From Candidatus Saccharimonadota bacterium (GTDB lineage Bacteria; Patescibacteriota; Saccharimonadia; Saccharimonadales; Saccharimonadaceae): a stretch of DNA of 56,519 bases. Location: the NCBI GenBank assembly GCA_018060465.1, contig JAGOVX010000001.1, positions 1 to 56,519 of the forward strand, read 5' to 3'. The notes beneath the pieces are model-generated. The model was not told the origin of the DNA. It was given only the letters and a program-made list of their open reading frames with translations, and made no database searches. How positions within the stretch are numbered: the first letter of the stretch is position 1; every line of letters begins with the position of its first letter. Of the stretch, positions 1-13,126 are shown piece by piece. Made by a program: the position numbers and the translations under genes.

Positions 1-205
1 AGTTAGCTGGATGCCGTGCAATATCTTTTATTCGTGGCCATACTGGTAGCTCTGAATACTGATATTCAGCCTGTGTAGCAAGCACTCTTGCATTCTCCAG
101 CTCCCATACCGTCCACTGGTTATGGTTTCCACCCTCTACCTGATGAGCTGAAGTAGCAGCCCCCCACAAGAATCGCTTTGGAAATTTGGCGTCTGCGTGT
201 ATCAT
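1..205 (-). CDS. Glycoside hydrolase family 1 (beta-glucosidase-like), N-terminal 68 aa only; the gene runs off the left edge of the window
   Basis: Not in the ORF track because it is open-ended. My translation of the minus strand from the ATG at 205..203 gives MIHADAKFPKRFLWGAATSAHQVEGGNHNQWTVWELENARVL... FLWGAATSAHQVEGG matches the GH1 N-terminal signature. Confidence 0.8.
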   Translation of the reverse strand, partial: MIHADAKFPKRFLWGAATSAHQVEGGNHNQWTVWELENARVLATQAEYQYSELPVWPRIKDIARHPAN

Positions 206-243
206 CTGTACATATTATACGACAGGAACCGTCAAAGCAGTGT

Positions 244-1770
244 TTACGAAGAAATATCTTCGCCAAAATGTTTTTGTAGTCGCATAGTTATGCTACCTTC
301 ATGTCGGCCTAGTAGCGCAGAAAGTTCTGCAATACCCTTGCCGTTCTGAAATTCCTGCGTCAGCAATGCATCTTGCTGCTTCGTCCATGGCATATAGGCG
401 TTCGGGTAGGTTTCTCGCATTTTCGCAATTTTTTCCTGCCACGCACTGCCATTTTTTGCATGTGGTTGTGGTTCTGGCATCTTGGCACGTTCATCTGCTT
501 TCGCCTTCAAATGTGCAAACGCCTGCGTGTCCCGCCGAGATTTCTGATGCAGCTGCGTATCTATATGGTAGGCATCATCACTAATAGCCAGCGCCATTTG
601 GTTGATACCTTTTAGAAATAATGTGTCCAACGTTCGTACACGACTCAGCGCCACATAGCCCATACCCTCTACAAACGCTTTACGTAAGTCAATCAGCGCC
701 GCATCCAGCGTCATACCCTGGCTTTTATGCACTGTTATTGCCCACGCCAGACGCAACGGAATTTGTGTAATACTTGCACGCTTTTTGTCGCCATCACGTA
801 GTTCCCACGTATCAGGCACAACCGTCAGTTCTTTGCCATTTGTAAACTTTATTATCGGATATTCAGTCGCCGAGTCGAAGGCAACAACCGTCCCTAGACT
901 GCCATTAAAATATTTTTTATCAGGACTATTTTTTACCGCCATCACCAGCGCGCCTTCTTTCAAGCGCAGTTCAGCCGGAGCGAGTACAGAACGCTGCAAA
1001 CTTTCCACGTAATTTGTGCTTCCGGTGGTAGTTTGGCTATACCTCATTTCATCGCCGTCAAGCTGTGCCAGCCTAGCCTCATTTTCTCTATCCACATCGA
1101 CATTGACTGTGTGCAACTCGGTATACAGCAGGCCTTCCGGCGGATCTACCTGCACGCGTGCCAGTAATGCCTCGGCATGAGACCGACGCAAATCTTGATC
1201 TCGCATTGCATGTAAAATTTCCGACAATGTGTCGTCGGTATGTCGATATTGATCTTCCAGATAGCATATGGTTGGGTCAAGTTCTTGCCATACCTGAGAA
1301 TTTACCACAAAACCACCTACCCTACCTTGATCCCTGTTCACTGGCGGCAACTGGAACAAGTCGCCACTCATAATAAGTTGAATCCCACCAAAAGGAGTAT
1401 CTGGCTGTTTTCGTACCAGCCTACATACTTCATCCACCATATCAAGCCGAAAATCATGCAGCATCGATATCTCGTCGAGTATCAGCACGTCAGTTTTTTG
1501 GATTATTTCACGACGACCCTTTGGCAAATTATCGATAAAATACGGTGGCAATTCATCGTGTATGCCAATACCACACCAGCTATGAATAGTCGTACCTCCC
1601 AGATGCGAAGCAGCCAATCCTGTTGTGGCAGTTATCGACACATGTTTGCCCTCGTGTTTGGCAAGGCGAATAAACTGATTCAGCACATAGGTTTTACCAG
1701 ATCCAGCGGGACCCGTTAAAAATACGCTTTCTCCAGACAGCAATATCTCGAGTGCAAGCTGTTGATTCAT
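244..1770 (-). CDS. SF1B Pif1/RecD-family DNA helicase with a C-terminal HTH-like tail
   Basis: Helicase motifs: GPAGSGKT (Walker A), TATTGLAA, VLILDEISM (Walker B), GDLFQLPPV, QYRH, ITVHKSQGMTLD, YVALSRVRT. The C-terminal segment WTKQQDALLTQEF..IAELSALLGRHEGSITMRLQK looks like the HTH_40-type tail of bacterial Pif1-like helicases. Its ATG shares one base with the upstream stop (TAATG, 1768..1772). Confidence 0.85.
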   Translation of the reverse strand: MNQQLALEILLSGESVFLTGPAGSGKTYVLNQFIRLAKHEGKHVSITATTGLAASHLGGTTIHSWCGIGIHDELPPYFIDNLPKGRREIIQKTDVLILDEISMLHDFRLDMVDEVCRLVRKQPDTPFGGIQLIMSGDLFQLPPVNRDQGRVGGFVVNSQVWQELDPTICYLEDQYRHTDDTLSEILHAMRDQDLRRSHAEALLARVQVDPPEGLLYTELHTVNVDVDRENEARLAQLDGDEMRYSQTTTGSTNYVESLQRSVLAPAELRLKEGALVMAVKNSPDKKYFNGSLGTVVAFDSATEYPIIKFTNGKELTVVPDTWELRDGDKKRASITQIPLRLAWAITVHKSQGMTLDAALIDLRKAFVEGMGYVALSRVRTLDTLFLKGINQMALAISDDAYHIDTQLHQKSRRDTQAFAHLKAKADERAKMPEPQPHAKNGSAWQEKIAKMRETYPNAYMPWTKQQDALLTQEFQNGKGIAELSALLGRHEGSITMRLQKHFGEDISS

Positions 1771-2741
1771 TAACCCCTCGGTGCCTCGCCGTCTGGCTCG
1801 CCCAAAAGTTTCTTACTTTTTATCTCGTATCGCCTACCTGTGACTTGGCTAGTTATATAGTCTTCATTTATCAGATTCACAAACATATCTAGGTCGTTGC
1901 CATCCATAATAATAATCTGATTCTTCTCGTCGCTCATCAGTTCCAGCTGCATTTCGTCGGCATATTCAATTGCCTGCTCTTGTGAAACTGCCCCAATCTC
2001 TAGCTTCTGTAGTTTGTTGACAACTTTTCTACGTTCACGTACCAATGTTTGCAGGTCGAGCCCCTCAGCAAAACTCAGCTTGTACGTTTTTTCGATTTCA
2101 GCCACCTTCTCGTCAGCCAGTAGTTGTTTTTTATACTCATGTTGAAATAGTTTTTCAAATTTTGACTGATGAAAGATAAAAATATCGCCGCCAATAATCA
2201 CTACTTGATTGTCTGTTGGCATTTTTACACCAATATCTGCTTTAAACGGAGCCAGCGTTCCACCATTGAGTTCCCAGCTTGTCGCACCTGCTAGCACATT
2301 GCTTTGTTGCACAGCCTTTACGATATAAAATGGTGCCGCATCTGCTTCTTTACAGCGCAGTACTACACCTTTTACACGCTTGAACTCATGGTCGGTTTCA
2401 GAAAACGACTCGATGCTGGCACGTTCTTTTTCTATCAAATGTAGTAGTGTTTCAGCACGCCCAACTTTTGCCACTTCAGTGCGTAGTAGTACATTTTCCT
2501 CAGCCTCACTACGCTCGTAGTCGCGAACCATCATACCGGTACCTGCGCCAAAATTAACAGTATTGATCGCATCGTATAAAAACATTGCTCTCAGTTGATT
2601 TTCAAGCTCGGCTGAATACTTTATATGGTATGGTGTGTAGTTTTTGTTAAACACAAATAGTTCAAGGCTGATCTCATTTTTTATTCGGTCAGTTTGGTTC
2701 GCCCACAAAAATACATCAGTCGGTTCTGGTTGATCGGTCAT
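1770..2741 (-). CDS. Hypothetical protein, KwaB/DUF4868-like (tentative)
   Basis: 323 aa, soluble, with no enzymatic motif. The length and layout match my recollection of DUF4868: a central block FYIVKAVQQSNVL, then VVIIGGDIFIFHQSKFEKLF, then a C-terminal LINEDYITSQVTGRRYEIKSKK. AAAGGA lies 5 nt upstream of the ATG. The family call rests on memory only and needs an HMM search. Confidence 0.5.
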   Translation of the reverse strand: MTDQPEPTDVFLWANQTDRIKNEISLELFVFNKNYTPYHIKYSAELENQLRAMFLYDAINTVNFGAGTGMMVRDYERSEAEENVLLRTEVAKVGRAETLLHLIEKERASIESFSETDHEFKRVKGVVLRCKEADAAPFYIVKAVQQSNVLAGATSWELNGGTLAPFKADIGVKMPTDNQVVIIGGDIFIFHQSKFEKLFQHEYKKQLLADEKVAEIEKTYKLSFAEGLDLQTLVRERRKVVNKLQKLEIGAVSQEQAIEYADEMQLELMSDEKNQIIIMDGNDLDMFVNLINEDYITSQVTGRRYEIKSKKLLGEPDGEAPRG

Positions 2742-2761
2742 GTTGTCCTTTTTACGTTATA

Positions 2762-3355
2762 TTACTTTTCGCACGCAATGCCGTCGTTGTCACGGTCTAG
2801 CTTGCCCTGGTAGCTTTCATCAGATCGCTTGATGTTAAACACACCTGCTTCAAATGCTGCGGTACAGTTCTCGAATCGACGACCTTTTGATGCCTTGCTG
2901 GTACTTTGCGCGGCAACCTTTTCTTGTGCTGCCTTTGATGCAGTATTTGCCGAGCTTGCCTTGCCGTTCACTTCACCATTTGGAGCAGTTTGAAATGGTG
3001 AGTATTTGCCGTTCACATCAGCCTGTGATGGGTTTGTAAGCACCACCCCTGCATATGCCGACCATACTACTACGAGTGCCATCAATGCCTTTGCCCAAGG
3101 GCTATTCTTGAAACCTTCTGGGTCATGCACATACCACACAGCAGCCACAACAATAGGTATGATAGGCAGCACAACAATCCACAGCAGCCAGCCTACTAGA
3201 ATTCGGCGGCTCTTTGTCCAATTTTGGTAGGAATTCCGAGTAAGCGGAAACCGACTTAGTAGCCACTCTGCTCCGCGTAGGAAAAATCCACCTTTTGCAA
3301 TCTTGGCACGCTCGTCATTTACCTTCGCTTCTTCACTTTGCTTTTTCTCAACCAT
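2762..3355 (-). CDS. Two-TM membrane protein with a C-terminal Excalibur (DxDxDGxxCE) calcium-binding domain
   Basis: Hydrophobic segments ILVGWLLWIVVLPIIPIVVAAVWYV and WAKALMALVVVWSAYAGVVLT. A low-complexity A/S/K linker follows. The C-terminus FENCTAAFEAGV...GKLDRDNDGIACEK matches the Excalibur motif. GGGGAG SD lies upstream of the ATG. Confidence 0.7.
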   Translation of the reverse strand: MVEKKQSEEAKVNDERAKIAKGGFFLRGAEWLLSRFPLTRNSYQNWTKSRRILVGWLLWIVVLPIIPIVVAAVWYVHDPEGFKNSPWAKALMALVVVWSAYAGVVLTNPSQADVNGKYSPFQTAPNGEVNGKASSANTASKAAQEKVAAQSTSKASKGRRFENCTAAFEAGVFNIKRSDESYQGKLDRDNDGIACEK

Positions 3356-3427
3356 GTTATCTCCCCTTTATACTTGTACTTATTGTAGCAAGTTTTTATG
3401 TGATTTTAGAATCTTTTTACACGCGGG

Positions 3428-3928
3428 CTAGAGATCTTGCAGCACAGACTCTTGCGGCAGTGTCGCAAGTATCGTATGGATAGATTGTGTTGGTATGAAC
3501 AATGTAGCCGTGTTTGAAATAGGGTGAAAATCCAAGTCTGGCTCATTTAGAAGTTCCGCATCAACAATTACCTTTACGTGATGTGCTGTTTCATTCAAAC
3601 AGCAAAATATACTGACAGAACCTGGTTTTACACCTAGCATTGTTTCTACTTTTTCGGGGCTGCAAAACCGTACTTTCTTCTCGCCTAAATCGTCTGCTAA
3701 TTTTCGCAGGTCAAGCCGTTTTAGCCCGGGCATCACTACTAAATACTGCCGCCTACCTTTGTCGTCCTGAATAAACAAGTTCTTTATTTCGGTTCGTCCA
3801 GGCAGCACGCGCATCGCCTCCTCTACCGTATATACAGCCTCGTGGCGTACAAGCTCGTAAGGAATTGAAAGCTGTTGCAAAAACCGTATGCAGTCATCCT
3901 CTTTTACATAGTGTGCTTCAGATGTCAT
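3428..3928 (-). CDS. YbaK/ProX-type aminoacyl-tRNA deacylase (free-standing prolyl-tRNA editing domain homologue)
   Basis: 166 aa. The pattern YELVRHEAVYTVEEA...EIKNLFIQDDKGRRQYLVVMPG..RLDLRKLA...GVKPGSVSIF...HP is typical of the YbaK/ProRS-INS superfamily. Confidence 0.7.
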   Translation of the reverse strand: MTSEAHYVKEDDCIRFLQQLSIPYELVRHEAVYTVEEAMRVLPGRTEIKNLFIQDDKGRRQYLVVMPGLKRLDLRKLADDLGEKKVRFCSPEKVETMLGVKPGSVSIFCCLNETAHHVKVIVDAELLNEPDLDFHPISNTATLFIPTQSIHTILATLPQESVLQDL

Positions 3929-3929
3929 C

Positions 3930-4928
3930 CTAGTGAATCTCGCTTATTGCACGAACTATCATGTAGATAATATACACGGCCATGCCTATCCCTACCCCAA
4001 TACTCGTACCTGTTTTTAGTCGCTGACCCAACGGCGCAACTACATTTGCTTCCCTATTACCCACTCGTTCGTCTGCATAATAACTGCCCTGCTCGGCAAT
4101 CTCGCCGCCAACTTTTTTTGCAATATCCATCAAAGCTTTTATATTCTTTTCCTTCACCAACGCGTAGTTTGTTTGTGCGTAAATATAAAATCTGTCATCT
4201 ACTACCTCCATGTCATAGGCACCCTCACTGTCCATGGCGGCCTGCATCACATCTGGCGTAAAAATATACAGGGCATCACGTGCGTATTCTTGAGGTGCAT
4301 ACAAGGTAAAATATTTGTCAAAATCTCCCTCTAGCGATAGTTTTTGTCCGTTCTTAAATTCATCCGGTAAATTTGTCACAACACTGAGAAAATTATTTTT
4401 CTTTGTATCAAGTACCATATTTGGCAAACGACGCGGCAATTTCATCATCAAAAATCCCCATATGTGAATCTGCTGGCTTTTGCCACTTCCTGTCGTGTAG
4501 CGATACTCACCTACTTCTATCCCATCAGAAAACGTAATGCCATGCTGGATTACTCGCGAGTGTCCCTTGTTAAAAATCATACCGGTATGCGGTATGTCTT
4601 TTTGTTTAAACACATAGCGTGCATGATTCATTTCGGCAAATTTATGCAGCTGTACGCGTGCCCTAGTATTCTCTACTATCGCCGAAAGTATAGCTGAAAC
4701 TACTGCCCATCCGATACCGAATACTACCCCAAATTGCACCACTATCCCTGGCATACGCAGTATAGCACCTACAATAGCCGTCACTAGTCCAGCCAATGCA
4801 GCAAGCACAGTTACCCACATGTAGGTTTCAGAAATCGTCATCCACCTGTCACCGGTTAATTTTTTGTAGGCAGCTAGATCAGCCTCAGTTATTTTCGTCG
4901 TGAGCGCGCGATAGTCCACAGCTTTCAT
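3930..4928 (-). CDS. Membrane protein, DUF3137-like (tentative)
   Basis: It has two N-terminal TM helices and one C-terminal TM. The central block LSLEGDFDKYFTLYAPQEYARDALYIFTPDVMQAAMD resembles the DUF3137 core as I recall it. Confidence 0.45.
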   Translation of the reverse strand: MKAVDYRALTTKITEADLAAYKKLTGDRWMTISETYMWVTVLAALAGLVTAIVGAILRMPGIVVQFGVVFGIGWAVVSAILSAIVENTRARVQLHKFAEMNHARYVFKQKDIPHTGMIFNKGHSRVIQHGITFSDGIEVGEYRYTTGSGKSQQIHIWGFLMMKLPRRLPNMVLDTKKNNFLSVVTNLPDEFKNGQKLSLEGDFDKYFTLYAPQEYARDALYIFTPDVMQAAMDSEGAYDMEVVDDRFYIYAQTNYALVKEKNIKALMDIAKKVGGEIAEQGSYYADERVGNREANVVAPLGQRLKTGTSIGVGIGMAVYIIYMIVRAISEIH

Positions 4929-11632: not shown

Positions 11633-12280
11633 TCATCCTTCTACTCCTTCTCCGTTTTTTAACAGTTCAAGCTCTTTACCACTGCCCTCTAACCCTATCG
11701 ATAACCAGCGATGCGCGAGGCTATGGCCTACGTCATTCAATAACCCATTGTGTACCGGAACAAGCTTGCGAGCTTTCGCTGTCTGTGCAAACTCAATCAC
11801 TTCACTCATTTTCAACCATGGTGCTGAAATTGGCACACCAACAACCTCTACTTCATCTGGAATAACATGGAATGAATCGCCTGGATAGTAATAAAAATCC
11901 CCTACATTAATTGCAATATTCTTACACGGACTCGATTGCCATATGATTGCGTGGTCAAGCACATACAATGACACCGATACATCACCTACCGTCAGCACTC
12001 TATCGCTCTCAATAACGTGTTTGGGACATTCAACACTCGCAAGTTCAGCAATACTTTCCCCATGACCATACACCATCACCTCAGAGCTAGCAGACACAAT
12101 CTTGGCTAGTTGTGCAGCGCTCGTGTGGTCTGGATGCACGTGCGTATAGAAAACCGCATCGATATTTGATAGATCATCGGGGAGTTCAGTAAAATCACCT
12201 GGGTCAATAACAATCTTCACGCCGTCTTTTTCAATGACCACACACGCATGTCCATATTTTGTTAGTTTTGACCGACTCAT
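11633..12280 (-). CDS. MBL-fold metallo-hydrolase
   Basis: THVHPDH metal-binding motif, plus downstream His/Asp residues (VLDHAI, PVHNG). Confidence 0.75.
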   Translation of the reverse strand: MSRSKLTKYGHACVVIEKDGVKIVIDPGDFTELPDDLSNIDAVFYTHVHPDHTSAAQLAKIVSASSEVMVYGHGESIAELASVECPKHVIESDRVLTVGDVSVSLYVLDHAIIWQSSPCKNIAINVGDFYYYPGDSFHVIPDEVEVVGVPISAPWLKMSEVIEFAQTAKARKLVPVHNGLLNDVGHSLAHRWLSIGLEGSGKELELLKNGEGVEG

Positions 12281-12334
12281 GTTATCCTCCCGCGTAGTTA
12301 CTAGTAGTAATTATACTCCACTGGCATGCTACTG

Positions 12335-13126
12335 TTATTCAATAGGTGGATTTAAAATGCGAATCGCTGCGCTAAGGCCCCAATTTACACTGTAATTATT
12401 CCGAGGATCACTTTCTTTAAAAGAATTGTATATATCTTCCCACTCTGCAATTTTATTTCCATCCGCATCATACATCACAAGTGTTGTGTCGTCCAACGGA
12501 TCATCTTCTGGCATAAACTCGTAGGAGCCCACAACCGTACCATCTTGAAATAGTGTGCCATTATGGACGCCAGTCACCTTGTCTGCCGTTTCAACTTGCT
12601 TTCGACTAAACTGGCTTAAGTCTCGCCCAGGCATGCGAATAGACATCGTGCCGTCACTAGCAGTGGCAAAGCCTTTTTCGGCTAAATTAGTGGCTAGCCC
12701 AGGAGACAACGTAGCTGTTTCATGTATAAAAACCTTAGTTAGCGGAAGTACAGACCGTACACCCGAAAGCAAGCGACCAATCGCAAAGTTCGCCAACCCT
12801 TGCCCTCGATATTCTTCCCGGACAAATGCCGACATTAAATGAGCCTCAACTGCCTTTGAGCCAGCTTTTACTACTGTGATAAATGCACCGCCAACCACCG
12901 TATCGGTAGGATCGCGATTCACATCTTCAAGAACAAACCGTCGATGCATAAAAATATCTTCTGCTCGCACATCAAGATCAGCCGGCCCGTCAGCCAAGGC
13001 ACGATACTGATCAATAGTCGAACCAACGCGATTTGCATGCTCTGGTGAATCGCCCACAAACATCATGCGTGAACCCTCTGGAAAACGATCCATTGAGTCG
13101 TAAATCAACGGTCGGGCTGTTGCCAT
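12335..13126 (-). CDS. GNAT-like N-acetyltransferase domain protein with a C-terminal extension
   Basis: EEYRGQGLANFAIGRLL resembles GNAT motif A (Q/R-x-x-G-x-G/A). The rest is unassigned. Confidence 0.5.
   Translation of the reverse strand: MATARPLIYDSMDRFPEGSRMMFVGDSPEHANRVGSTIDQYRALADGPADLDVRAEDIFMHRRFVLEDVNRDPTDTVVGGAFITVVKAGSKAVEAHLMSAFVREEYRGQGLANFAIGRLLSGVRSVLPLTKVFIHETATLSPGLATNLAEKGFATASDGTMSIRMPGRDLSQFSRKQVETADKVTGVHNGTLFQDGTVVGSYEFMPEDDPLDDTTLVMYDADGNKIAEWEDIYNSFKESDPRNNYSVNWGLSAAIRILNPPIE

What the first reader, a model, noticed from the sequence alone, without database searches (positions are those of the whole stretch)
244..3355. KwaB/DUF4868-like protein coupled to a Pif1/RecD-type helicase behind a two-TM Excalibur membrane protein: candidate helicase-containing Kiwa-like defence cassette
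**Seen in the sequence**
- Three co-directional minus-strand genes sit between unrelated housekeeping genes (a GH1 glycosidase fragment and a YbaK deacylase).
- Gene 1 (2762..3355) has two TM helices and a C-terminal DRDNDGIACE Excalibur motif.
- A 20-nt gap with an AAAGGA SD follows.
- Gene 2 (1770..2741) is a 323-aa soluble protein without catalytic motifs. Its layout (FYIVK..., VVIIGGDIFIFHQSKFEKLF, ...DYITSQVTGRRYE) matches what I remember of DUF4868, the KwaB family.
- The stop of gene 2 shares a base with the ATG of gene 3 (TAATG). This implies translational coupling and fixed stoichiometry.
- Gene 3 has the full SF1B motif set plus an HTH tail.

**Established knowledge**
- Canonical Kiwa is a membrane KwaA plus KwaB and contains no helicase.
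- Defence systems often pair an uncharacterised effector or sensor with a helicase, as in Hachiman.

**Inference**
- This may be an undescribed three-gene variant in which a different membrane protein replaces KwaA and a dedicated Pif1-like helicase supplies DNA processing.
- That arrangement would suit a reduced genome that may lack RecBCD.

**Caveats**
- The DUF4868 call is from memory.
- The Excalibur gene may be an unrelated neighbour.
Basis: partly seen in the sequence, partly recalled or inferred. Interest (0 to 1): 0.8.

Follow-up and report, generated by a model that had tools for sequence, protein, structure and literature searches.

The report
Conserved KwaB-like and Pif1 gene pair
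A relative of the anti-phage DNA-binding protein KwaB sits beside a Pif1 helicase at the same chromosomal spot throughout the tiny-genome Saccharibacteria, so it is an ancient, tightly conserved pair rather than the mobile three-gene defence cassette first proposed.

Summary
The three minus-strand ORFs, the TAATG stop/start overlap and the 20-nt SD gap are all real. Gene 2 is a genuine full-length KwaB-family protein: it passes the Pfam cut-off, matches a PADLOC KwaB model end to end, and its AlphaFold model matches only solved KwaB structures. Gene 3 is a bona fide Pif1 helicase.

The "variable-island, three-gene Kiwa-like cassette" reading does not hold.
- The Excalibur gene is upstream of KwaB in only 2 of 80 species.
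- No KwaA exists in the window or in 160 related loci.
- The KwaB-like/Pif1 pair is vertically inherited across Saccharibacteria, always upstream of the GH1–CofD–dcw block.
- A Pif1 orthologue is co-directional within the flank in 138 of 160 loci. A deeper clade has the swapped order.
- dN/dS for KwaB-like is about 0.00–0.02.
- The nearest outgroups are canonical KwaA–KwaB systems and solo phage copies beside recombination genes.
- Published Tn-seq in a cultured relative shows both genes are dispensable.

Adjacency is no tighter than background synteny (GH1–Pif1 is equally tight), and opposite-strand genes split the pair in many species. Functional coupling is therefore plausible but unproven. 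I read it as a lineage-fixed, KwaA-independent KwaB derivative, probably a conditionally needed DNA-surveillance factor that may work with Pif1.

The parts
1770..2741 (-). KwaB-family protein (323 aa): N-terminal Rossmann-like domain plus C-terminal DUF4868 domain. It belongs to a KwaA-less clade conserved across Saccharibacteria.
   Evidence: Pfam PF16162 33.3 bits > GA 26.3. PADLOC KwaB PDLC00233 E 4e-10 over residues 21-311. NCBIfam KwaB equivalog only 37 bits against a cut-off of 200. AF2 model pLDDT 87.4. In Foldseek against PDB the top six hits are all KwaB, E 2.5e-12 to 2e-11 over the full length, and the next hit is E 0.12. dN/dS 0.00-0.022.
244..1770 (-). Pif1-family SF1B DNA helicase (508 aa) with a C-terminal tail of about 75 aa, possibly tri-helical and DNA-binding.
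   Evidence: Pfam PIF1 118 bits. PDB Pif1 matches: yeast 5o6b E 8e-63, human 6hpt E 3e-60, Bacteroides 5fhd E 2e-50. Motifs GPAGSGKT, DEISM, PFGGIQ...GDLFQLPPV, QYRH, TVHKSQG and YVALSRV are visible in the translation. RecD and RecD2 NCBIfam equivalogs are far below cut-off.
1768..1772 (-). TAATG stop/start overlap of the KwaB-like and Pif1 genes. It is real but specific to this lineage.
   Evidence: Sequence. No such overlap in any of 80 GTDB loci.
2742..2761 (-). 20-nt spacer with AAAGGA ahead of the KwaB-like start codon.
   Evidence: Sequence.
2762..3355 (-). Two-TM Excalibur-domain membrane protein. Examined and judged an unrelated, lineage-specific neighbour, not part of the module.
   Evidence: Pfam Excalibur E 6.5e-11 with no KwaA hit. 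No PADLOC hit. A homologue lies upstream of KwaB in only L022 and L061 of 80 species.
3930..4928 (-). DUF3137-like membrane protein (332 aa). Possible optional accessory; membership uncertain.
   Evidence: Present in 11 of 160 loci. It is immediately adjacent and co-directional in 10 of them, in three different slots. It is the only family of 107 slot-gene clusters seen in all three slots. Pfam DUF3137 is sub-threshold at 19.5 bits.

Best explanation
Gene 2 is a KwaA-independent member of the KwaB family, a two-domain dimeric DNA-binding protein best known as the effector of the Kiwa anti-phage system. Gene 3 is a Pif1 5'-3' helicase. They are not a mobile defence cassette. They are an ancient, single-copy, vertically inherited pair of neighbours fixed at one chromosomal site, just upstream of the GH1-CofD-dcw block, throughout Saccharibacteria. 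The pair is under very strong purifying selection yet dispensable for growth in phage-free laboratory co-culture. The Excalibur gene is an incidental neighbour.

Inferred mechanism (not shown): without KwaA to tether and gate it at the membrane, the KwaB-like protein acts in the cytoplasm. It binds DNA through its DUF4868 channel, on forks, ends or incoming or foreign DNA. The neighbouring Pif1 helicase probably works on the same substrates by unwinding DNA or displacing protein. Together they would form a conditionally required DNA-surveillance or DNA-processing module. This is closer in spirit to a dual-use RecBCD-like function than to an arms-race defence island.

Confidence by layer: identity and evolutionary status about 0.9, functional cooperation with Pif1 about 0.4, an immune role about 0.35.
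For: Identity:
- Pfam, PADLOC and NCBIfam all name KwaB.
- phmmer links the protein over its full length to P0196 (E 2.8e-17). P0196 sits in a canonical KwaA(PF28043)-KwaB operon.
- The AF2 model (pLDDT 87) matches only solved KwaB structures.

Vertical, fixed and conserved:
- 3172 homologues, with the top 120 at 67% identity or more.
- 361 GTDB species genomes, nearly all labelled Saccharibacteria.
- Only 199 clusters at 50% identity among 1.84 billion proteins.
- The block KwaB-Pif1-(GH1)-(CofD)-MraZ-RsmH is syntenic in all 80 GTDB loci.
- dN/dS is 0.00-0.022 for KwaB-like, against 0.016-0.077 for Pif1 and 0.06-0.16 for RsmH.

Pair linkage:
- A Pif1 orthologue is co-directional in 138 of 160 loci, within 150 bp in 73, and never on the opposite strand.
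- A deeper clade (KwaB 46-52% identical) and Southlakia epibionticum have the swapped order Pif1->KwaB and are still adjacent.
- Relatives at about 40-44% identity (L155, L175, L167) still have Pif1 78 bp, 2.0 kb and 3.2 kb downstream, while L149 and L179 show none.
- GH1 and CofD are lost or moved in many lineages while the pair persists.

No KwaA: none by Pfam in the neighbours, and none by tblastn in the window or any Saccharibacteria locus.

Dispensability: in Tn-seq, SEML1_0264 (helicase) and SEML1_0265 (DUF4868) are NE/NE/NE with flat read counts (PMC10633639 Table S1).

DNA-transaction context of solo relatives: phage copies follow exonuclease-Sak4-SSB or RecT modules.

KwaB biochemistry: a dimer with non-specific ss/dsDNA binding in a basic channel that stalls forks (bioRxiv 10.1101/2023.02.26.530102).
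Against: - Adjacency is not above background synteny. Where GH1 is present, GH1-Pif1 is as tight as KwaB-Pif1: 91% against 93% within 3 kb, and 68% against 55% within 150 bp.
- Where the two genes are more than about 400 bp apart (37 of 73 GTDB loci with Pif1) they are separated by heterogeneous genes, and many of these are on the opposite strand (pilin-like 18, prephenate dehydratase 9). Co-transcription is therefore not conserved.
- In 3 loci with at least 3 kb of flank on both sides, and in L100, no Pif1 is nearby.
- The helicase belongs to a 'core family' spread well beyond Saccharibacteria, while DUF4868 does not (Table S1). Pif1 must therefore have KwaB-independent roles.
- No KwaB-helicase fusion was seen among the listed homologues.
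- No physical-interaction test could be run.
- Conservation of the E. coli DNA-contact residues could not be established, because the sequence alignment to 9o0i is weak (E 0.51).
- Canonical and phage KwaB relatives have no Pif1 neighbour.
Confidence: 0.55

Rival explanations
1. Unrelated neighbours. The KwaB-like protein and the Pif1 helicase have independent functions, and their adjacency is a by-product of the strong gene-order conservation of Saccharibacteria genomes.
For: - GH1-Pif1 adjacency is as conserved as KwaB-Pif1 where GH1 exists.
- The pair is interrupted by opposite-strand genes in many species.
- Pif1 belongs to a widely distributed core family, and DUF4868 does not.
- Canonical and phage KwaB relatives never have a Pif1 neighbour.
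- In L041, L058, L179 and L100, KwaB is present without Pif1 nearby.
Against: - The two genes stay co-directional neighbours through an order swap in a deep clade.
- They persist where GH1 and CofD are lost or relocated.
- Half of the loci have operon-like spacing of 150 bp or less.
- Both act on DNA.
Confidence: 0.3
2. Lineage-fixed immunity. The pair is a bona fide anti-phage or anti-plasmid system that became fixed in Saccharibacteria. KwaB-like would sense or bind invading DNA without KwaA, and Pif1 would act as effector or co-factor. This overlaps with the best explanation but commits to defence as the selected function.
For: - The only known function of the KwaB family is defence.
- Insertions in both genes are neutral in phage-free culture, whereas recA and recF insertions give growth defects.
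- Phages carry solo homologues that could be decoys or exclusion factors.
- One contig carries both a canonical Kiwa and the solo type. This shows the two are not redundant.
Against: - dN/dS of about 0.02, class-wide vertical retention and a fixed non-island locus are atypical for defence genes. Kiwa itself is prone to horizontal transfer, with 53% of loci on mobile elements.
- There is no self/non-self gate once KwaA is gone.
- The NCBIfam equivalog score is far below cut-off.
Confidence: 0.35
3. One reading: a three-gene, helicase-containing Kiwa-like cassette in a variable island, in which the two-TM Excalibur protein replaces KwaA.
For: - In this genome the three genes are co-directional and tightly spaced.
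- Excalibur homologues are also upstream of KwaB in L022 and L061.
Against: - Excalibur is absent from 78 of 80 species loci.
- It gives no KwaA or PADLOC hit.
- The locus is syntenic rather than variable.
- The TAATG overlap is not conserved.
Confidence: 0.03

Closest known systems
Kiwa defence system (KwaA + KwaB; E. coli ECOR49/O55:H7; PDB 9mrx, 9mtn, 9nyu)
   Same: Gene 2 shares the full two-domain KwaB architecture (Rossmann-like N-domain plus DUF4868) by profile and by fold. The nearest relatives outside the clade are canonical KwaA-KwaB operons.
   Different: - There is no KwaA.
- It is not an NCBIfam equivalog (37 bits against 200), and identity to solved KwaB is 13-15%.
- It is vertically inherited, at a fixed locus, with dN/dS of about 0.02. 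Kiwa is prone to horizontal transfer and often sits on mobile elements.
- It neighbours a Pif1 helicase, which canonical Kiwa lacks.
Pif1-family SF1B helicases (ScPif1, hPIF1, Bacteroides BaPif1)
   Same: The full helicase core with the Pif1 signature motif, and strong PDB matches.
   Different: It has an extra C-terminal tail of about 75 aa with no Pfam family. It is also conserved next to a KwaB-like gene, which has not been reported for other bacterial Pif1 genes in the literature searched.
Helicase-plus-partner defence systems such as Hachiman (HamA/HamB) or Gabija (GajA/GajB)
   Same: The general logic of a DNA-acting protein paired with a helicase. This resemblance rests on my own knowledge.
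   Different: - There is no homology. PADLOC gives only generic P-loop-level hits to GajB, Nhi and type IV RecD.
- Those systems are sporadic and island-borne, whereas this pair is fixed in its lineage.
Phage-encoded solo KwaB-like proteins (IMG/VR contigs; P0128, P0179)
   Same: KwaA-less, full-length KwaB-like proteins that are 28-41% identical to gene 2.
   Different: They are carried on phage contigs of about 30-35 kb, directly after recombination or SSB genes, and have no Pif1 neighbour.

Membership tests
Kiwa system (KwaA+KwaB) | KwaB component with a DUF4868 domain | tested here: met
   Pfam PF16162 33.3 bits > GA 26.3. Five PADLOC KwaB models hit, best E 4e-10.
Kiwa system (KwaA+KwaB) | Full-length KwaB fold (N-terminal Rossmann-like domain plus DUF4868) | tested here: met
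   PADLOC alignment covers 21-311 of 323 residues. In Foldseek the top six hits are all KwaB over 323-336 columns, E about 1e-12, TM 0.45-0.50. The moderate TM score suggests a different domain orientation.
Kiwa system (KwaA+KwaB) | Adjacent four-TM KwaA membrane partner | tested here: not met
   No PF28043 hit in the Excalibur or DUF3137-like neighbours. tblastn with three KwaA proteins from the nearest canonical systems finds nothing in the window (best E 0.54) or in 160 Saccharibacteria loci.
Kiwa system (KwaA+KwaB) | Equivalog-level similarity to characterised anti-phage KwaB (NCBIfam NF041623) | tested here: not met
   37.2 bits against a curated cut-off of 200.
Kiwa system (KwaA+KwaB) | Anti-phage or anti-plasmid activity | not testable with these tools
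   The only indirect evidence is that insertions are neutral in phage-free co-culture.
Pif1-family SF1B helicase | SF1B motif set with the Pif1 signature motif, and Pfam PIF1 above threshold | tested here: met
   PF05970 118 bits against 25.9. PDB Pif1 hits E 8e-63. The motifs can be read in the translation.
Pif1-family SF1B helicase | 2B/SH3 insertion domain | tested here: inconclusive
   Pif1_2B_dom scores 23.8 bits against a GA of 23.9, and SH3_13 is sub-threshold. ECOD assigns SH3 to the Southlakia orthologue.
RecD / RecD2 (RecBCD or AddAB-associated) | Equivalog-level match | tested here: not met
   RecD2 81 bits against 500, and RecD 50 bits against 310.
Excalibur-domain protein (gene 1) | C-terminal Excalibur Ca-binding motif | tested here: met
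   PF05901 42.8 bits against 22.
Defence island / mobile cassette | Patchy distribution, variable genomic context, association with other defence or mobile-element genes | tested here: not met
   Fixed syntenic position in 80 of 80 GTDB loci. No match in plasmid or phage databases. By contrast, the outgroup Kiwa loci sit beside restriction-modification genes.

The most novel reading that the evidence does not exclude
The KwaB family contains a class-wide, vertically inherited, KwaA-independent branch. Together with a dedicated Pif1 helicase, and in some lineages a DUF3137-like membrane protein, this branch is the resident handler or barrier for incoming DNA in naturally competent, defence-poor Saccharibacteria. 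Their phages carry solo KwaB copies as decoys or as replication/recombination accessories.
Probability: 0.2. Interest if true: 0.75.

Novelty: new variant of a known kind. Interest (0 to 1): 0.5.

Why it matters
KwaB is known only as the membrane-tethered effector of a sporadic, horizontally transferred defence system. Here a KwaB branch has shed KwaA, become fixed in an entire class of ultra-small epibiotic bacteria, and evolves more slowly than neighbouring housekeeping genes. It stays next to a Pif1 helicase, and phages carry solo copies beside their recombination genes.

That suggests the KwaB fold has a broader DNA-transaction role than Kiwa alone reveals. It may be an example of a defence protein turned into a lineage-fixed function, or the reverse.

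It can be tested directly. Southlakia epibionticum is genetically tractable, and both genes tolerate disruption.

Tried and rejected
- Promoter and terminator scan of 1..4200: counts are at the chance level and there are no minus-strand intergenic sites, so it is uninformative.
- PDB sequence search with the clade profile: only KwaB 9o0i, at E 0.51. This is too weak for residue-level mapping of the DNA-contact residues.
- First AF2 model from a 12-sequence MSA: pLDDT 67. It was superseded by the model from a 44-sequence MSA.
- PHROGs for the KwaB-like protein: no family.
- Deposited phage genomes and PLSDB plasmids: no match.
- HTH_40 or any other Pfam family for the helicase tail: none.
- Search for a conserved third gene between KwaB and Pif1: the contents are heterogeneous.
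- Second word-indexed homologue search with distant relatives: only 5 hits.
- Literature: no paper links Kiwa, KwaB or DUF4868 with Saccharibacteria or Pif1. DUF4868 appears only as an annotation in a supplementary table.
- DUF3137 literature: nothing relevant.
Full report
**Observation.**
- The sequence shows the TAATG stop/start overlap at base 1770 and the 20-nt AAAGGA-containing spacer.
- Pfam assigns PIF1 (118 bits) to 244..1770, KwaB/PF16162 (33.3 bits, gathering cut-off 26.3) to 1770..2741, and Excalibur (E 6.5e-11) to 2762..3355.
- The neighbours are a YbaK-type editing domain and GH1.
- PADLOC matches gene 2 to five KwaB models, the best almost end to end (residues 21-311, E 4e-10). 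It gives nothing for the Excalibur protein.

**Identity of gene 2.**
- NCBIfam recognises KwaB but far below the equivalog cut-off (37 bits against 200).
- A clade profile hits solved KwaB only weakly by sequence (E 0.51).
- An AlphaFold2 model built from a 44-sequence diverse alignment is confident (pLDDT 87.4, pTM 0.73).
- Foldseek against the PDB returns six KwaB chains as the only significant matches (9mtn, 9nyu, 9mrx). They score E 2.5e-12 to 2e-11 over 323-336 columns with TM 0.45-0.50. The next hit is E 0.12.
- An exhaustive phmmer search links the protein over its full length to P0196 (E 2.8e-17). P0196 lies in a canonical KwaA(PF28043)-KwaB operon beside restriction-modification genes.

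Gene 2 is therefore a true, divergent KwaB-family protein with both KwaB domains.

**Identity of gene 3.** It matches yeast, human and Bacteroides Pif1 structures at E 8e-63 to 2e-50. It carries the SF1B and Pif1 signature motifs. It is not a RecD or RecD2 equivalog. Its C-terminal tail has no Pfam family. The only support for a helical DNA-binding tail is a weak PHROG match and a 'tri-helical' ECOD assignment for the Southlakia orthologue.

**Organism and distribution.**
- The source names on the homologues identify Candidatus Saccharibacteria.
- There are 3172 homologues, and the best 120 are all at least 67% identical and about 324 aa long.
- At least 361 GTDB species genomes encode a relative, almost all labelled Saccharibacteria or Saccharimonadales.
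- Only 199 clusters at 50% identity are found among 1.84 billion proteins.

This is a narrow, clade-specific KwaB branch.

**Context.**
- In 80 GTDB species loci, the block KwaB -> Pif1 -> (GH1) -> (CofD) -> MraZ -> RsmH is syntenic throughout. GH1 is missing in about a third of the loci, and CofD is relocated in one group, while KwaB and Pif1 persist.
- Across 160 loci (GTDB plus metagenomes), a Pif1 orthologue lies on the same strand within the fetched flank in 138. It is within 150 bp in 73 and never on the opposite strand. Only 3 loci with at least 3 kb on both sides lack it.
- A deeper clade (KwaB 46-52% identical to the window protein) has the swapped order Pif1 -> KwaB -> GH1. So does cultured Southlakia epibionticum: SEML1_0264 helicase, 0265 DUF4868, 0266 GH1.
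- Relatives at about 40-44% identity (L155, L175, L167) still have Pif1 78 bp, 2.0 kb and 3.2 kb downstream, while L149 and L179 show none.
- The upstream neighbour of KwaB varies (Excalibur, MMPL, MetK, RNase H and others).
- An Excalibur homologue is upstream in only 2 of 80 species.
- No KwaA is found in the window or in any Saccharibacteria locus.

**Selection.**

| Gene | dN/dS in unsaturated pairs |
|---|---|
| KwaB-like | 0.00-0.022 |
| Pif1 | 0.016-0.077 |
| RsmH | 0.06-0.16 |
| MraZ | about 0-0.06 |

In all 13 pairs compared, the KwaB-like dN is equal to or lower than that of Pif1, and in every pair where the gene could be scored it is lower than that of RsmH. It is below GH1 in 9 of 10 pairs; in L012-L013 it is 0.007 against 0.006. 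This is unlike arms-race defence genes. It also contrasts with canonical Kiwa, whose phylogeny is dominated by horizontal transfer and about 53% of whose loci lie on mobile elements (bioRxiv 10.1101/2023.02.26.530102).

**Experimental data from the literature.** In the S. epibionticum Tn-seq, both the helicase and the DUF4868 gene are called non-essential at all three time points. Read counts are flat: 6838, 6753, 6657 for the helicase and 2590, 2504, 2503 for DUF4868. The helicase is flagged as a 'core family' and DUF4868 is not (PMC10633639 Table S1). In the same table, recA and recF insertions give growth defects, and nothing is annotated as RecB, AddA, AddB or ExoV.

**Outgroups.**
- At 24-33% identity the relatives are canonical KwaA-KwaB pairs.
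- At 26-41% identity they are solo copies on phage or MGE-like contigs. These sit next to SSB/VRR-NUC and terminase, RecT/MazG, or FtsK/PDDEXK genes.
- 65 IMG/VR contigs carry such solo copies without Pif1 or KwaA.
- In L185 the gene follows an exonuclease VIII-like / Sak4 annealase / exonuclease / SSB module.
- One contig (L098) carries both a canonical KwaA-KwaB pair and a solo-type KwaB 5 kb away.

**Is the KwaB-Pif1 adjacency functional?**

For:
- It survives an order swap.
- It outlasts GH1 and CofD.
- Half the loci have operon-like spacing.
- Both proteins act on DNA.

Against:
- A control shows that GH1-Pif1 adjacency, where GH1 exists, is equally tight: 91% against 93% within 3 kb, and 68% against 55% within 150 bp.
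- Where the two genes are more than about 400 bp apart (37 of 73 GTDB loci with Pif1) they are separated by heterogeneous genes. Many of these are on the opposite strand: pilin-like 18, prephenate dehydratase 9.
- The TAATG overlap is not seen in any of the 80 GTDB loci.
- The helicase family is much more widespread than the KwaB-like branch.
- Kiwa in E. coli does not need RecB, so a helicase substitute is not required by the known mechanism.

I put functional cooperation at about 0.4.

**Mechanism.**
- Shown for the family: KwaB is a dimer that binds ss and dsDNA non-specifically in a basic channel and stalls forks. KwaA tethers and gates it.
- Shown here: the Saccharibacteria protein keeps the fold but has no KwaA, is fixed and highly constrained, and is dispensable in culture.
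- Inferred: it is a cytoplasmic DNA-binding factor used under particular conditions, such as phage or foreign DNA, incoming transforming DNA, or fork or end problems. Pif1 may act with it on the same substrates.

Immunity and domesticated DNA maintenance cannot be separated with these data. The constraint pattern and the phage recombination-module context lean towards a dual-use or maintenance-like role. The Tn-seq neutrality and the family history lean towards immunity.

**Verdict.** The KwaB identity and the recurrence of the Pif1 pairing are right. The three-gene cassette with Excalibur, the variable island, and conserved translational coupling are wrong.

No paper in the searchable library describes this association. 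I rate it a new variant of a known kind, of moderate interest, and directly testable in S. epibionticum.

Noticed in passing
window 3930..4928 (-); L019, L024, L163 (upstream of KwaB); L175 (between); L052, L071, L073, L077, L086, L134 (downstream of Pif1): A DUF3137-like membrane protein (Pfam sub-threshold) occurs in 11 of 160 loci. In 10 of them it is immediately adjacent to and co-directional with the KwaB/Pif1 pair, in three different slots. It is the only one of 107 slot-gene families seen in all three slots. It is a better candidate membrane accessory than Excalibur. In S. epibionticum the protein with DUF3137-like structural matches (SEML1_0901) lies elsewhere, next to LemA.
   Followed up: partly
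L020, L021, L023, L025, L027, L033, L036, L037, L046, L049, L147 and others, between KwaB and Pif1: Type IV pilin-like genes (prepilin N-methylation motif) on the opposite strand are the commonest insert between KwaB and Pif1, in 18 loci. Prephenate dehydratase is the next commonest, in 9.
   Followed up: partly
L182, L184-L247 (IMG/VR contigs); L096, L091, L094: About 65 viral contigs, mostly about 30-35 kb, with GC of about 46% like the window and several from human samples, carry a solo KwaB-like gene 28-41% identical to gene 2. In L185 it directly follows an exonuclease / Sak4 annealase / SSB module. The hosts are unknown and could be Saccharibacteria phages.
   Followed up: partly
L098 5463..6942 and 12199..12942: One contig encodes a canonical KwaA-KwaB pair and, 5 kb downstream, a solo-type KwaB with the N-terminal extension and FxWAN motif of the conserved branch. 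The two kinds therefore coexist.
   Followed up: no
L183 (IMGVR_UViG_3300008472_000016): This 'viral' contig carries a 64%-identical KwaB-like gene with Pif1 immediately downstream. It looks like a Saccharibacteria chromosomal fragment or an integrated element rather than a free phage.
   Followed up: no
L029, L033 (GTDB records): Records labelled Candidatus Parcubacteria and Verrucomicrobiia carry the Saccharibacteria-type KwaB-Pif1 locus at 68% identity. This is probably mis-binning or mislabelling. P0271, a canonical KwaB, is labelled Verrucomicrobiae on a 1.05-Mb contig.
   Followed up: no
L066, L070, L071, L073, L081-L083, L085, L087, L088: In this closely related group, with a 2-bp KwaB-Pif1 gap, CofD has moved about 4 kb upstream of KwaB and GH1 is often lost. 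The KwaB-Pif1-MraZ order is kept.
   Followed up: no
P0149 (492 aa), P0125 (419 aa), P0127 (393 aa): Some KwaB-like relatives carry N-terminal extensions of 70-180 aa of unknown nature, low-complexity in some. No KwaB-helicase fusion was seen.
   Followed up: no
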